Virus record (IMG/VR): IMGVR_UViG_2706794665_000010
DNA: 7,405 bases
Strand: one strand, 5' to 3'
From: a virus
Taxonomy: Duplodnaviria > Heunggongvirae > Uroviricota > Caudoviricetes
The notes below the pieces were generated by a model. The model was not told where the DNA came from. It was given only the letters and a program-made list of their open reading frames with translations, and made no database searches. The position numbers and the translations under genes were made by a program. This document shows positions 1 through 7,405 of the stretch, one piece after another. Positions within the stretch are counted from its first letter, which is position 1, and every line of letters begins with the position of its first letter.

Positions 1-2
1 GG

Positions 3-98
3 GGAATATCTCCCCGGCAGCCTTCAGGGAAAAATATCATCAGATGGCTGCTTAAAAAAAGAACAAATGGTAGTGTCCGCTATTGCCAGTACACCTCA
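3..98. repeat. Left copy of a perfect inverted repeat (partner at 7310-7405); covers the upstream region and first ~10 codons of ORF 67-297
   Basis: Reverse complement of 7310-7405 matches 3-98 base for base by manual comparison. Bases 1-2 (gg) would pair with sequence beyond 7405, so the repeat probably runs off-window. Confidence 0.85.
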
Positions 99-2304: not shown

Positions 2305-2866
2305 ATCCTGGTGGGCGGTCCGCAATCAGGTGGCGGACGCGCTACCGGAAGCGGTATTACGTCGTTCGCTGGGGTTGCGTGCGGAAAAAATTCGCTCTGT
2401 GTACAGTGAAAGCGACATCATACCGGGAGAGCAGACAGCCACCAGCATACTGAAGCAGCGCACAAAAAATATTGCGTTACTGCCTCACGTCCACCAGCAA
2501 CAGAACCCACCACAGGAAAAGACGGTGGTCAGCATTGCCGTTGATCCGGAGTCACCGGCTCAGTATCTCCAGCGCCAGAAATCACAACGGGAAGAGATGC
2601 CTGTATACACGCGCTGGGTAAAAACGCAGAAATGCATGACGTGTGGCAATCAGGCAGATGATCCGCATCACATCATTGGTCATGGACTGGGAGGGATGGG
2701 AACAAAGGCTGATGATTTGTTTGTTATTCCGTTATGCCGTAAATGCCGTAACGAACTACATGCCGGAGTAAAAGATTTTGAAGAGAAACACGGCAGTCAG
2801 CTGTTGTTGCTGATTCGTTTTTTAATGCACGCGAGAAATTCGGGTGTTCTGAAGTGGAAAGCATAA
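2305..2866 (+). CDS. C-terminal portion of a nin-region protein with a YbcO-like (DUF1364-type) zinc-binding putative nuclease domain; possibly DUF968/YdfU family. 5' end masked.
   Basis: Frame is open from the first unmasked base to TAA 2864-2866. Motif CMTCG...DPHHIIGHGLGGMGTKADDLFVIPLCRKCRNELH parallels the recalled YbcO pattern H-x-I...GxGTK..DL...CxxC. Stop abuts the rusA start. Confidence 0.75.
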
Positions 2867-3247
2867 ATGACCGAGCGCATAGAATTTGTTTTACCTTACC
2901 CGCCGACGGTGAACACTTACTGGCGTCGTCGTGGCAGCACATATTTTGTATCAAAAGCCGGGGAGCGTTATCGCCGGGCAGTGGCGCTTATTGTTCGCCA
3001 GCAGCGGCTGAAATTAAGCCTGTCCGGAAGGTTGGCAATAAAAATTATTGCAGAACCACCGGATAAGCGCCGCCGTGACCTGGACAATATTCTGAAAGCG
3101 CCGCTGGATGCGCTGACGCATGCGGGGTTGCTAATGGACGATGAGCAGTTTGATGAAATCAATATCGTTCGTGCTCAGCCAGTATCTGGTGGACGTCTGG
3201 GGGTGAAGATTTATCCCATAATGCTTGAAGGGCAGGTCAAAAAATGA
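2867..3247 (+). CDS. rusA: RusA-family Holliday junction resolvase (126 aa)
   Basis: Similar in length and motifs to recalled E. coli RusA (PxxRRRDLDN, LDDxQ, GGRL). Sits in the canonical position just upstream of Q. Stop overlaps the Q start (ATGA). Confidence 0.88.
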   Translation: MTERIEFVLPYPPTVNTYWRRRGSTYFVSKAGERYRRAVALIVRQQRLKLSLSGRLAIKIIAEPPDKRRRDLDNILKAPLDALTHAGLLMDDEQFDEINIVRAQPVSGGRLGVKIYPIMLEGQVKK

Positions 3248-4098
3248 AACTGGAAGATTTACCGAAATACTACTCCCCAAAATCCCCCGGCCTGACTGAT
3301 GCATCGGCCTCAACGTCGAAAGATGCGCTGAGTATCACTGATGTGATGGCCGCGCAGGGCATGACACAGAATCGGGCTGAGATGGGGGTTTCTGCGTTCC
3401 TTGGGAAAATGGGCATTAGTATGAATGACAGAGAGCGGGCAACAGAATTGCTGACAGAATATGCACTCAGTCGGTGTGATCGCGTGGCGGCGTTAAGAAA
3501 ACTCCCGGCAGAAATAAAACCGGCAGTGATGCGTATTATGGCTTCGTATGCGTTTGAAGATTATGCCCGTAGCGCGGCGAGCAAAAAACAGTGCCCTTGT
3601 TGCTATGGGGAAAAATTTATTGAAAGCGTAGTTTTTACAAACAAGGTCCAGTATCCGGATGGTAAGCCGCCGGTATGGGCAAAGTGTACGAAAGGTGTGT
3701 ATCCGTCTTACTGGGAAGAATGGAAAAAAGTCAGGGAGGTGGTAAAAGTTGCCTGTCCGGAGTGTGGCGGAAAGGGTGAGGTTTCCACCGCCTGTAAGGA
3801 TTGCCGTGGGCGTGGTGTCGCCATTCATCGTGAAGAGTCGGTAAAACGTGGTATGCCTGTTATCAGAGACTGCCAGCGTTGTGGTGGTCGTGGCTATGAA
3901 AGACTACCATCAACGGAGGCATTTAATGCTATATGCGAGGTGACAAACCAGATAACACGCGCGTCATGGGAAAAAACAGTTAAGAAATTCTATGATGCGC
4001 TGGTGACTCGGTTTGATATTGAAGAAGCATGGGCTGAGCGGCAGTTAAAAAAGGTAACTAGGTTGATTTTTCCGGAATCTGTGGTAAATTCGTCATAA
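3244..4098 (+). CDS. Lambdoid late-gene antiterminator Q (284 aa), zinc-finger type
   Basis: N-terminus MKLEDLPKYYSPKSPGL resembles recalled QuuD-type Q proteins. Cys clusters CPCC, CPECGGKG, CKDCRGRG and CQRCGGRG. Followed by a PR'-like promoter and short terminated leader. Confidence 0.88.
   Translation: MKLEDLPKYYSPKSPGLTDASASTSKDALSITDVMAAQGMTQNRAEMGVSAFLGKMGISMNDRERATELLTEYALSRCDRVAALRKLPAEIKPAVMRIMASYAFEDYARSAASKKQCPCCYGEKFIESVVFTNKVQYPDGKPPVWAKCTKGVYPSYWEEWKKVREVVKVACPECGGKGEVSTACKDCRGRGVAIHREESVKRGMPVIRDCQRCGGRGYERLPSTEAFNAICEVTNQITRASWEKTVKKFYDALVTRFDIEEAWAERQLKKVTRLIFPESVVNSS
4063..4090 (+). promoter_or_regulatory. PR'-like late promoter (copy 1) overlapping the 3' end of Q
   Basis: TTGATT (4063-4068), 16-nt spacer, extended -10 TGgTAAATT (4082-4090). 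The TAAATT -10 with upstream TG matches lambda PR' as recalled. Predicted start near 4097-4099. Confidence 0.5.
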
Positions 4099-4101
4099 CT
4101 A

Positions 4102-4163
4102 TGGGCGTTTTATGCCTGACGTTAGAAGAGTTTCTACAACCCGCCGCCGAGCGGGTTTTTTAT
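4102..4163 (+). repeat. 62-nt block (initial transcribed region plus tR') identical to 4950-5011
   Basis: Manual alignment: identical over 62 nt, while the adjacent Q 3' sequence is clearly diverged between the two copies. Confidence 0.85.
4139..4162 (+). terminator. tR'-like rho-independent terminator (copy 1), about 60 nt downstream of the predicted PR' start
   Basis: CCCGC-cgccga-GCGGG hairpin followed by TTTTTTA. Confidence 0.6.
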
Positions 4164-4200
4164 TGCGGAATTAATTACGGACCGTTATTATTCTGCTCCC

Positions 4201-4276
4201 GGCCCTTTAGCTCAGTGGTGAGAGCGAGCGACTCATAATCGCCAGGTCGCTGGTTCAAATCCAGCAAGGGCCACCA
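4201..4276 (+). tRNA. tRNA with CAU anticodon, most like tRNA-Ile2 (ileX/ileZ type); elongator Met not excluded
   Basis: Hand-folded cloverleaf: acceptor GGCCCTT/AAGGGCC, D-stem GCTC/GAGC, anticodon loop CTCATAA, T-arm GCTGG-TTCAAAT-CCAGC, encoded CCA. C4-G69 and C5-G68 are consistent with recalled tRNA-Ile2 determinants. Confidence 0.85.
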
Positions 4277-4572
4277 TCACAAACCGCCATTAGCTTATCA
4301 GGAAGAGCAGACGACACGATNNNNNNNNNNNNNNNNNNNNNNNNNNNNNNNNNNNNNNNNNNNNNNNNNNNNNNNNNNNNNNNNNNNNNNNNNNNNNNNN
4401 NNNNNNNNNNNNNNNNNNNNNNNNNNNNNNNNNNNNNNNNNNNNNNNNNNNNNNNNNNNNNNNNNNNNNNNNNNNNNNNNNNNNNNNNNNNNNNNNNNNN
4501 NNNNNNNNNNNNNNNNNNNNNNNNNNNNNNNNNNNNNNNNNNNNNNNNNNNNNNNNNNNNNNNNNNNNNNNT

Positions 4573-4647
4573 TACGATACGTTGGTGGTTCGGTTTGACA
4601 TTGAAGAGGCATGGGCGGAGCGGCAGTTAAAGAGGGTAACGCGATAG
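4573..4647 (+). pseudogene. 3' remnant of a second, diverged Q gene (visible part YDTLVVRFDIEEAWAERQLKRVTR*)
   Basis: Aligns to the Q C-terminus (YDALVTRFDIEEAWAERQLKKVTR) with substitutions, a roughly 10-nt insertion and an earlier in-frame TAG. At most about 300 nt lies between tRNA copy 1 and this point, so a full Q cannot fit. Confidence 0.6.
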
Positions 4648-4652
4648 TGTTG

Positions 4653-4680
4653 TTGATTTTTCCCGAATCTGTGGTAAATT
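4653..4680 (+). promoter_or_regulatory. PR'-like late promoter (copy 2)
   Basis: TTGATT (4653-4658), 16-nt spacer, TGgTAAATT (4672-4680); same elements as copy 1. Followed by mask 4685-4949 where copy 1 has only about 8 nt. Confidence 0.4.
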
Positions 4681-4949
4681 TGCTNNNNNNNNNNNNNNNN
4701 NNNNNNNNNNNNNNNNNNNNNNNNNNNNNNNNNNNNNNNNNNNNNNNNNNNNNNNNNNNNNNNNNNNNNNNNNNNNNNNNNNNNNNNNNNNNNNNNNNNN
4801 NNNNNNNNNNNNNNNNNNNNNNNNNNNNNNNNNNNNNNNNNNNNNNNNNNNNNNNNNNNNNNNNNNNNNNNNNNNNNNNNNNNNNNNNNNNNNNNNNNNN
4901 NNNNNNNNNNNNNNNNNNNNNNNNNNNNNNNNNNNNNNNNNNNNNNNNN

Positions 4950-5011
4950 TGGGCGTTTTATGCCTGACGTTAGAAGAGTTTCTACAACCCGCCGCCGAGC
5001 GGGTTTTTTAT
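4950..5011 (+). repeat. Second copy of the 62-nt initial-transcribed-region/tR' block, including the terminator hairpin at 4988-5009
   Basis: Identical to 4102-4163; hairpin CCCGC/GCGGG followed by a T-run. Confidence 0.85.
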
Positions 5012-5131
5012 GACTGAAATCGCGTCAGTACAGTAAACGCGCTGGTGGCGGTGAATACCTGTCTTTCAGCTTGCTGGCTTTTTCGACAAGAGTTATTGGT
5101 GTGTCACGTTAACCGGAAAAGGGAAAAAGAC

Positions 5132-5329
5132 ATGCTAAAACAGCAGGATATGACAGAAACCGCCAGAGTGGTGTTTAATGAATTAAGCGTTACCGAACCG
5201 GCGACAGTCGGGGAGATAGCGCAGAATACTTACCTTTCACGCGAACGCTGCCAGTTAATACTGACCCAGCTGGTTATGGCGGGTCTGGCAGACTATCAGT
5301 TCGGTTGTTACAGACGCCTTCCGCAGTGA
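5132..5329 (+). CDS. Small putative winged-helix DNA-binding protein (65 aa)
   Basis: GA-rich SD-like region (AAGGGAAAAAG) before ATG 5132. The segment TVGEIAQNTYLSRERCQLILTQLVMAGLA fits an Lrp/MarR-like helix-turn-helix pattern. Followed by an intrinsic terminator. The ATG at 5045 is not preferred. Confidence 0.5.
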   Translation: MLKQQDMTETARVVFNELSVTEPATVGEIAQNTYLSRERCQLILTQLVMAGLADYQFGCYRRLPQ

Positions 5330-5343
5330 AGGCTTTTTTATTT
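5316..5343 (+). terminator. Rho-independent terminator overlapping the stop of ORF 5132-5329
   Basis: GCCTTC-cgcagt-GAAGGC hairpin followed by TTTTTTATTT. Confidence 0.6.
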
Positions 5344-5356
5344 GTGGTAAATGGGC

Positions 5357-5387
5357 GGCTGGTGGGTGTTAGGGGCACCCACCAGCC
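5357..5387. other. Perfect 12-bp inverted repeat with a 7-nt spacer (GGCTGGTGGGTG-ttagggg-CACCCACCAGCC)
   Basis: Seen directly; all 12 pairs are Watson-Crick. No T-run follows on either strand, so it is not a canonical terminator. Confidence 0.6.
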
Positions 5388-5487
5388 ATCTGCTCATGCG
5401 TTGGGTTCACAAGCAAACCTCAGGCCCACTGCTTTGCGCAAAAGCAGAATGAGCCTATCAGAGACAGGCTTAATGATCCATGCTTAA

Positions 5488-5507
5488 TACTGTAAAAATA
5501 TCCAGTT
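5488..5507. promoter_or_regulatory. LexA (SOS) box-like palindrome TACTGTAAAAATATCCAGTT
   Basis: Fits the CTG-N10-CAG core and most of the recalled consensus TACTGTATATATATACAGTA. Lies 1 nt before mask 5509-5774, upstream of the visible methyltransferase body. Confidence 0.35.
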
Positions 5508-5774
5508 GNNNNNNNNNNNNNNNNNNNNNNNNNNNNNNNNNNNNNNNNNNNNNNNNNNNNNNNNNNNNNNNNNNNNNNNNNNNNNNNNNNNNNNNNNNNN
5601 NNNNNNNNNNNNNNNNNNNNNNNNNNNNNNNNNNNNNNNNNNNNNNNNNNNNNNNNNNNNNNNNNNNNNNNNNNNNNNNNNNNNNNNNNNNNNNNNNNNN
5701 NNNNNNNNNNNNNNNNNNNNNNNNNNNNNNNNNNNNNNNNNNNNNNNNNNNNNNNNNNNNNNNNNNNNNNNNNN

Positions 5775-6560
5775 ATGATGCGTGAACGCTTCAGTGTGCT
5801 GAACCATATTATCTGGGCGAAGCCGTCCGGACGCTGGAACGGATGCAACAAGGAAAGCCTGCGGGCGTATTTCCCCGCCACAGAGCGCATTCTGTTCGCG
5901 GAACATTATCAGGGGCCGTATCGTCCGAAAGATGCCGGGTATGCGGCGAAGGGCAGTGCACTGAAACAGCATGTGATGGCCCCGCTGATTTCTTACTTTC
6001 GTGATGCGCGAGCTGCCCTGGGGATAACGGCAAAACAGATTGCAGATGCCACAGGAAAGAAAAACATGGTGTCGCACTGGTTCAGTGCCGGTCAGTGGCA
6101 GTTGCCGAATGAAAGCGATTATCTGAAATTACAGGCGCTGTTTGCCCGGGTGGCAGAAGAGAAGCATCGGCGTGGTGAACTGGAAAAGCTCCACCACCAG
6201 CTGGTGGATACGTATACCTCACTGAACCGGCAGTATGCGGAGCTGCTGAGTGAATATAAACATCTGCGGCGGTATTTTGGCGTGACGGTGCAGGTGCCGT
6301 ATACCGATGTGTGGACGCATAAACCGGTGCAGTTCTATCCCGGGAAACATCCGTGCGAAAAACCGGCAGAAATGCTGCAGCAGATAATCAGCGCTAGCAG
6401 TCGTCCGGGTGACCTGATTGCAGATTTTTTCATGGGGTTGGGTTCGACAGTGAAAGCGGCACTGGCGCTCGGGCGTCGTGCAATTGGCGTTGAGCTGGAG
6501 ACTGAACGTTTTGAGCAGACGGTTCGGGAAGTACAGGATTTAGTCAGCCAGAACGGATGA
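5775..6560 (+). CDS. DNA methyltransferase, beta-class amino-MTase (N6-adenine or N4-cytosine), C-terminal about 260 aa; 5' end masked
   Basis: HPCEKP followed by DLIADFFMGLGSTVKAALALGRRAIGVE parallels the recalled YhdJ arrangement (HPTQKP ... DPFAGSGTT...IGIE). The expected N-terminal DPPY-type motif would fall in mask 5509-5774. Stop TGA 6558-6560. Confidence 0.8.
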   Translation: MMRERFSVLNHIIWAKPSGRWNGCNKESLRAYFPATERILFAEHYQGPYRPKDAGYAAKGSALKQHVMAPLISYFRDARAALGITAKQIADATGKKNMVSHWFSAGQWQLPNESDYLKLQALFARVAEEKHRRGELEKLHHQLVDTYTSLNRQYAELLSEYKHLRRYFGVTVQVPYTDVWTHKPVQFYPGKHPCEKPAEMLQQIISASSRPGDLIADFFMGLGSTVKAALALGRRAIGVELETERFEQTVREVQDLVSQNG

Positions 6561-6600
6561 TATTGAAGAATTAATTACGCGTCGTTATTATGCGGCTCCC

Positions 6601-6676
6601 GGCCCTTTAGCTCAGTGGTGAGAGCGAGCGACTCATAATCGCCAGGTCGCTGGTTCAAATCCAGCAAGGGCCACCA
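6601..6676 (+). tRNA. Second copy of the tRNA(CAU), 76/76 identical to 4201-4276
   Basis: Same cloverleaf. Flanks are similar but clearly diverged (upstream roughly 85% over about 35 nt, downstream diverging after about 30 nt). Confidence 0.85.
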
Positions 6677-7101
6677 TCACATACCGCCATTAGCTCATCA
6701 GGAAAGAGCGCCAGCCTNNNNNNNNNNNNNNNNNNNNNNNNNNNNNNNNNNNNNNNNNNNNNNNNNNNNNNNNNNNNNNNNNNNNNNNNNNNNNNNNNNN
6801 NNNNNNNNNNNNNNNNNNNNNNNNNNNNNNNNNNNNNNNNNNNNNNNNNNNNNNNNNNNNNNNNNNNNNNNNNNNNNNNNNNNNNNNNNNNNNNNNNNNN
6901 NNNNNNNNNNNNNNNNNNNNNNNNNNNNNNNNNNNNNNNNNNNNNNNNNNNNNNNNNNNNNNNNNNNNNNNNNNNNNGAATCCCCCTGTGCGGAGGGGCA
7001 ATCAGCGAGTAGGTATATGGGATAATCGCGGATTCAGGTGCTGGTACTGAATTCACCGGGAGGCACCCGGCATCATGCAATGGCACATAGCGCCACTCTC
7101 C

Positions 7102-7126
7102 AGCCCTCTCCGGAGGGGCTTTTCTG
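7102..7126 (+). terminator. Candidate rho-independent terminator
   Basis: AGCCCT-ctccgga-GGGGCT hairpin (includes one G-U pair) followed by TTTTCT. A weaker candidate than the others. Confidence 0.35.
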
Positions 7127-7309
7127 TGCCGGATACATCACAGTTTCTGGAACCTTAGGTACTACAGTATCAGTCAGGGTGCTATATTTTCAGATGTGAT
7201 GAAAGCCTGTCAGCAGGCAGGGCGTATCGGAAATGACCCAGTAGAGAAAACGTTGACTCAGATACCGGTGCTGAGTTACCGGGAAACCGGCATCACATGA
7301 CCGCTATCC

Positions 7310-7405
7310 TGAGGTGTACTGGCAATAGCGGACACTACCATTTGTTCTTTTTTTAAGCAGCCATCTGATGATATTTTTCCCTGAAGGCTGCCGGGGAGAT
7401 ATTCC
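7310..7405. repeat. Right copy of the perfect inverted repeat (partner 3-98); on the minus strand it encodes the same start MVVSAIASTP fused to a different 11-codon tail
   Basis: Manual reverse-complement comparison. Minus-strand translation from 7339 gives MVVSAIASTPQDSGHVMPVSR then stop. Confidence 0.85.

What the first reader, a model, noticed from the sequence alone, without database searches (positions are those of the whole stretch)
3992..5011. Duplicated late-regulatory module: two PR' promoters, two tR' terminators and a Q remnant
Downstream of the intact Q there is a second, diverged Q 3' end with an early stop, a second PR'-like promoter, and a 62-nt initial-transcribed/tR' block that is identical to copy 1. 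The terminator block is identical while the adjacent Q coding sequence is diverged. This points to strong constraint on the Q-utilisation/terminator RNA or to mosaic recombination between related phages. In copy 2 the stretch between the -10 element and the conserved leader is about 257 nt longer than in copy 1, and it is entirely masked.
Basis: seen in the sequence. Interest (0 to 1): 0.5.

Follow-up and report, generated by a model that had tools for sequence, protein, structure and literature searches.

The report
Apparent duplication from a mis-scaffolded prophage
The second promoter, terminator and Q gene end are real DNA, but they most likely come from a different, related prophage and were strung into this gapped Shigella sonnei draft scaffold by the assembler, so the duplicated late-gene switch is probably an assembly artefact rather than biology.

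Summary
The "masked" stretches, however, are native assembly gaps of a public Shigella sonnei draft scaffold (CWSW01000180.1). Their N lengths are only estimates: 252, 266, 260 and 263 N stand for 244, 244, 245 and 304 nt.

Twelve relatives of the same IS-bounded prophage fragment, most of them complete chromosomes, are 100% identical to the flanking pieces. All twelve carry one module: Q, PR', leader/tR', orf65, methylase.

The window's extra visible DNA is the tRNA block 4164-4320 and the 113-nt island 4572-4684. Re-joined in the order island, 7 nt, leader, tRNA block, these pieces match a common E. coli prophage arrangement in one contiguous stretch (99.4%; at least 80% covered in 1,226 genomes). 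The scaffold's own order was found in none of 5,426 complete E. coli genomes, nor in viral or metagenome contigs. Every junction that creates the duplication lies in a gap.

The "early stop" is the normal Q stop. Copy 1 is the odd one, with a private 8-nt deletion. The leader is polymorphic, so its identity does not show constraint.

Verdict: scaffolding artefact (about 0.8). Low interest.

The parts
1..98 (.). Inner end of an IS3-family insertion sequence, left contig end. I recall it as IS600-like from memory. It is the reverse complement of 7310-7405.
   Evidence: 96-nt perfect inverted repeat. In E. coli ECMA0423 the arms are 936 nt long and encode an IS3-type OrfA/OrfB. Transposase genes flank the fragment in the relatives.
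3244..4098 (+). Q antiterminator gene, 284 aa. It is the usual 273-aa Q plus 11 codons, because an 8-nt deletion at 4059/4060 removed the normal stop.
   Evidence: Pfam PF03589 E 3.5e-55. The deletion is seen against L007 and L016. The exact protein is on this contig only.
4063..4090 (+). PR' copy 1: -35 TTGATT 4063-4068, 16-nt spacer, TG 4082-4083, -10 TAAATT 4085-4090. The -10-like element AACTAT is at 4097-4102.
   Evidence: Alignment with lambda PR'. The generic promoter scan does not list it at its threshold.
4102..4163 (+). Leader and tR' terminator, copy 1 (allele A). Hairpin 4138-4157 followed by a T run.
4164..4320 (+). tRNA block of a different prophage type: tRNA-Ile(CAU) 4201-4276 and the start of a degenerate tRNA-Arg. 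It is cut by a gap.
   Evidence: ARAGORN and Rfam. No differences from E. coli fS25a between 4120 and 4320. Absent from the 12 lineage relatives.
4321..4571 (.). Native assembly gap of 251 N, true content unknown. It holds the first junction that creates the 'duplication'.
4572..4684 (+). 113-nt island. It holds the 3' end of a B-type Q (stop TAG 4645-4647) and a B-type PR' (-35 4653-4658, -10 4675-4680).
   Evidence: At least 99% identical to the end of intact Q genes in 865 E. coli records, and 100% in the listed ones. Only 82% identical to the lineage's own Q end.
4685..4949 (.). Native assembly gap of 265 N. It holds the second junction. In ordinary prophages the two flanks are 7 nt apart (ctaacga).
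4950..5011 (+). Leader and tR' terminator, copy 2. It is identical to copy 1 and begins exactly at the gap edge. Hairpin 4986-5005.
   Evidence: In L016 both copies map to the single leader at 7244-7305.
5132..5329 (+). orf65, a small TrmB-like winged-helix protein. In the lineage it is the true downstream neighbour of the leader.
   Evidence: Weak Pfam TrmB hit, E 0.0026. Layout of the relatives.
5480..6560 (+). N6/N4 DNA methyltransferase gene, interrupted by the gap 5509-5774.
   Evidence: Pfam PF01555. The frame is restored only if the gap is 244 nt rather than 266.
6601..6676 (+). tRNA-Ile(CAU), the lineage's own copy.
7310..7405 (.). Inner end of the second, inverted IS3-family copy, right contig end.

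Best explanation
The window is a gapped short-read scaffold of a Shigella sonnei prophage fragment bounded by two inverted IS3-family copies.

In the real genome of this lineage the fragment has one late-regulatory module: Q, PR', a short leader ending in the tR' terminator, then orf65, a DNA methyltransferase and a tRNA cluster.

I infer that the isolate also carries at least one other related lambdoid prophage with a different arrangement: a B-type Q end, PR', the same 62-nt leader, then a tRNA cluster directly. The two arrangements share the leader exactly. In the assembly graph the leader is therefore a node with two ways in and two ways out.

The assembler and scaffolder resolved this wrongly. 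They joined the A-type promoter and leader to the other prophage's tRNA block. They then placed the B-type Q end and promoter (a 113-nt island) and the true continuation (leader, orf65) behind it, separated by N gaps of estimated length. The result looks like a tandem duplication with an insertion in copy 2.

The individual elements work as in any lambdoid phage. PR' fires constitutively, transcripts stop at tR', and Q loaded at PR' lets RNA polymerase read through into the tRNAs and late genes.

Shown: the gaps are native, the relatives have one module, and the extra pieces match another prophage type. Inferred: that such a prophage is present in this isolate, and the exact path of the mis-join.
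For: 1. The N runs are native gaps. NCBI's partial DUF968 protein WP_114012050.1 equals window 2306-2863, and the submitter's truncated ORFs are on record. N lengths disagree with true lengths here (263/304, 252/244, 266/244, 260/245) and in sister scaffolds (211/291, 245/387, and an 8-nt island between two gaps).
2. Twelve relatives (L016, L020, L023-L032, mostly complete chromosomes) have one leader copy, no B-type island and no A-type tRNA block. The IS-to-IS span is 6,559 nt in seven of them and 6,556 nt in an eighth. L016 is 100% identical to pieces 1-1594, 1858-2052, 5775-6717 and 6978-7405.
3. The window's excess over L016 is 846 nt. Allowing for the net gap misestimate (+4), the 8-nt deletion and a 2-nt indel, this equals the 848-nt leader-to-leader spacing.
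4. In E. coli fS25a the order is island, ctaacga, leader, tRNA block. The window's pieces re-joined in that order match as one contiguous stretch at 99.4%, and 1,226 genomes cover at least 80% of it in one place.
5. The scaffold's order was found nowhere. The best coverage in 5,426 complete E. coli genomes was 38% where 50% was possible. There were 0 hits for either junction pattern in metagenome and viral contigs.
6. The piece 2305-4320 is itself mosaic against the lineage. It has 0 differences over 1,292 nt, then 10 differences in 50 nt that match the other prophage type, then scattered differences.
7. S. sonnei holds a paralogous prophage with a 943-nt stretch identical to 5775-6717. Sister scaffolds show other serial layouts of paralogous pieces.
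Against: - I could not read the gaps or the raw reads, so the junctions are neither shown nor excluded directly.
- I could not show that this isolate carries the donor prophage type. The second S. sonnei paralog that I saw (L033) has neither the B-type island nor the A-type tRNA block.
- The piece 2305-4320 is contiguous sequence that joins an A-type PR' and leader to the tRNA block. That arrangement is natural elsewhere: 1,774 E. coli genomes cover at least 80% of the piece. At least part of the 'extra' DNA may therefore be a faithful read of some prophage in this isolate.
- The scaffolder must have had read-pair links to place the island where it did.
- Shigella genomes are not in the complete-genome collection I searched, so the absence there weighs less than the 12 lineage relatives do.
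Confidence: 0.8

Rival explanations
1. The arrangement is real. A very recent recombination in this isolate, between the IS-bounded fragment and one or two other lambdoid prophages, inserted about 0.8 kb (tRNA block, Q 3' remnant, second PR') between the leader and orf65. This gives two Q-loading promoters and two tR' terminators in tandem.
For: - Lambdoid prophages recombine freely here. Four combinations of Q end, leader type and downstream genes occur in complete genomes.
- Gene remnants at module junctions are common. Phage 933W keeps a methyltransferase 3' remnant just upstream of ileZ.
- The scaffolder had links that placed the pieces in this order.
- The private 8-nt deletion and the 10-SNP patch in Q show that this copy differs from the lineage in any case.
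Against: - The event would need two or three donor types within 0.8 kb, in a clonal lineage whose 12 sampled relatives all have a single module.
- The visible pieces are a circular permutation of a common arrangement. A mis-resolved repeat gives that result. A simple crossover does not.
- Both novel junctions fall in gaps.
- No second example exists in any collection searched.
Confidence: 0.15
2. The two leader/terminator copies are identical because the Q-utilisation and terminator RNA is under strong purifying selection, while the neighbouring Q coding sequence is free to drift.
For: The leader is short and structured, with a 5' hairpin and a terminator. PR'-derived short RNAs can be functional: StxS in Stx phages is one (PMC7547250).
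Against: - The leader is polymorphic. Only 160 of 2,497 E. coli records that hold it are at least 99% identical to this allele, and 1,192 are 90-95%.
- Alleles A and B differ at 5 of 62 positions, including the terminator stem and loop.
- In the closest complete genome both 'copies' map to one and the same leader.
Confidence: 0.02
3. Copy 2 is a real module carrying a real insertion of about 240-260 nt (a small mobile element or extra leader sequence) between the -10 element and the leader, hidden in the gap 4685-4949.
For: Where they can be checked in this scaffold, the N lengths are within about 40 nt of the truth. On that basis 265 N would suggest roughly 225-305 nt.
Against: - The promoter on the left of the gap is B-type and the leader on its right is A-type. 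In nature the A-type leader followed by orf65 sits behind an A-type promoter (TOE17 and the whole lineage).
- Gap estimates across repeats can be badly wrong: 245 N for 387 nt in L037.
- No contig with such spacing was found in viral or metagenome collections.
Confidence: 0.03

Closest known systems
Repeat-induced mis-scaffolding of paralogous prophages in short-read draft assemblies
   Same: - Short islands sit between N runs of estimated length.
- Alternative branches around a shared exact repeat are laid in series.
- The consensus is mosaic.
- Sister scaffolds from the same kind of pipeline show other such layouts.
   Different: Nothing distinguishes this case from the known artefact, except that I could not inspect the reads.
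Phage lambda late regulatory module (Q, PR', qut, 6S RNA, tR')
   Same: - A Q gene is followed directly by a promoter with -35 TTGAyT and -10 TAAATT.
- An AACGAT-like element sits 6-7 nt after the -10 element.
- Then come GGG and an intrinsic terminator.
   Different: - Q here is the larger Pfam PF03589 type with a zinc-ribbon repeat (273 aa), annotated quuQ in the Stx2_EH1910 phage record.
- The spacer between -35 and -10 differs from lambda's.
- The leader is about 65 nt, against about 190 nt in lambda.
Stx-phage 933W late region (Q, PR', tR', ileZ-argN-argO, stx2)
   Same: The tRNA-Ile(CAU) and tRNA-Arg cluster lies downstream of the Q-controlled terminator. It is 92% identical over about 150-180 nt, including a remnant of the methyltransferase 3' end.
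   Different: 933W has a different Q family and a different PR' leader. Only a 24-nt terminator-like match was found. No stx gene is visible in the window.
StxS, the regulatory small RNA made by termination of the PR' transcript at tR' (Sy et al. 2020, PMC7547250)
   Same: The origin is the same in principle: a constitutive PR' transcript ended at tR' during lysogeny.
   Different: - There is no sequence homology to the 933W PR' leader beyond the terminator.
- The predicted RNA is about 65 nt without processing, whereas StxS is 258 nt processed to 74 nt.
- No evidence of function exists here.

Membership tests
Lambdoid Q-dependent late antitermination module | Q antiterminator gene immediately upstream | tested here: met
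   Pfam Antiterm PF03589, E 3.5e-55, 184 bits. Relatives are annotated as antitermination protein.
Lambdoid Q-dependent late antitermination module | PR' promoter directly after Q, with a -10-like pause element in the initial transcribed region | tested here: met
   Copy 1 aligns with lambda PR': TTGATT, TGgTAAATT, AACTAT. The generic scan lists no promoter at its threshold. In copy 2 the pause element falls in the gap and cannot be seen.
Lambdoid Q-dependent late antitermination module | Intrinsic terminator tR' shortly downstream | tested here: met
   Hairpin plus T run at 4138-4163 and 4986-5011.
Lambdoid Q-dependent late antitermination module | Q-dependent read-through of tR' | not testable with these tools
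   Needs transcription assays.
Genuine tandem duplication in the genome | Contiguous sequence across the novel junctions | tested here: not met
   Both junctions lie in native N gaps, 4321-4571 and 4685-4949.
Genuine tandem duplication in the genome | The same arrangement in related genomes or independent assemblies | tested here: not met
   Found in 0 of 12 lineage relatives, 0 of 5,426 complete E. coli genomes, and 0 hits in viral and metagenome contigs.
Genuine tandem duplication in the genome | Read or read-pair support across the junctions | not testable with these tools
StxS-type PR'-derived small RNA | Sequence homology to StxS or the 933W PR' leader | tested here: not met
   blastn of 3990-4320 against the 933W late region gives only a 24-nt terminator-like match, E 0.001. 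No Rfam family matches the leader.
StxS-type PR'-derived small RNA | Stable, Hfq-bound RNA with trans targets | not testable with these tools
   Needs RNA-seq, Northern blots or CLIP.

The most novel reading that the evidence does not exclude
The order is real. This S. sonnei isolate would then carry two Q-loading late promoters and two tR' terminators in tandem. The second promoter would be separated from its leader by about 250 nt of unknown sequence. Q-modified polymerase from the first promoter would run through a second promoter-terminator unit, and two copies of a short PR'-derived RNA would be made in the lysogen.
Probability: 0.12. Interest if true: 0.3.

Novelty: not a real feature. 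Interest (0 to 1): 0.05.

Why it matters
It matters mainly as a caution. Runs of N in a draft scaffold are not masks over known sequence, and their lengths cannot be used to infer insertions. Lambdoid prophages in Shigella and E. coli share exact repeats, so scaffolds can place pieces of different prophages in series and mimic duplications.

If the duplication were real it would be a minor variant of a very well known regulatory module, private to one isolate.

The underlying biology is already well described: Q, PR', tR' and the tRNA cluster, with conserved linker sequences where lambdoid modules are exchanged.

Tried and rejected
1. Deliberate masks. For a long stretch I held that the N runs were fixed-length masks, because three of them each replace exactly 244 nt in relatives and 6 x 244 is 20% of the implied length. 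This was refuted. M1 replaces 304 nt. NCBI annotates partial proteins that start at the gap edges. Sister scaffolds have N runs at other positions.
2. Unmasking through other sequences. Gapped exact patterns across both gaps gave 0 hits in metagenome contigs and viral contigs. The genome-contig scan with Q returned only E. coli ECMA0423 and E. albertii, both single-module. The exact 284-aa Q is on this contig only. The submitter's 178-aa ORF is not in the gene-position index.
3. Generic sigma-70 scan. It found no promoter in 3900-5400. PR' was recognised only by alignment with lambda.
4. Rfam. No family matches the leader.
5. StxS homology. None was found.
6. Hidden stretches as collapsed repeats. 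I tested whether they coincide with stretches identical to a B-type relative. They do not: there are 24 and 11 mismatches inside two of them. The test used a proxy relative and is inconclusive.
7. Donor prophage. I could not show that the donor prophage type is present in this isolate or in S. sonnei.
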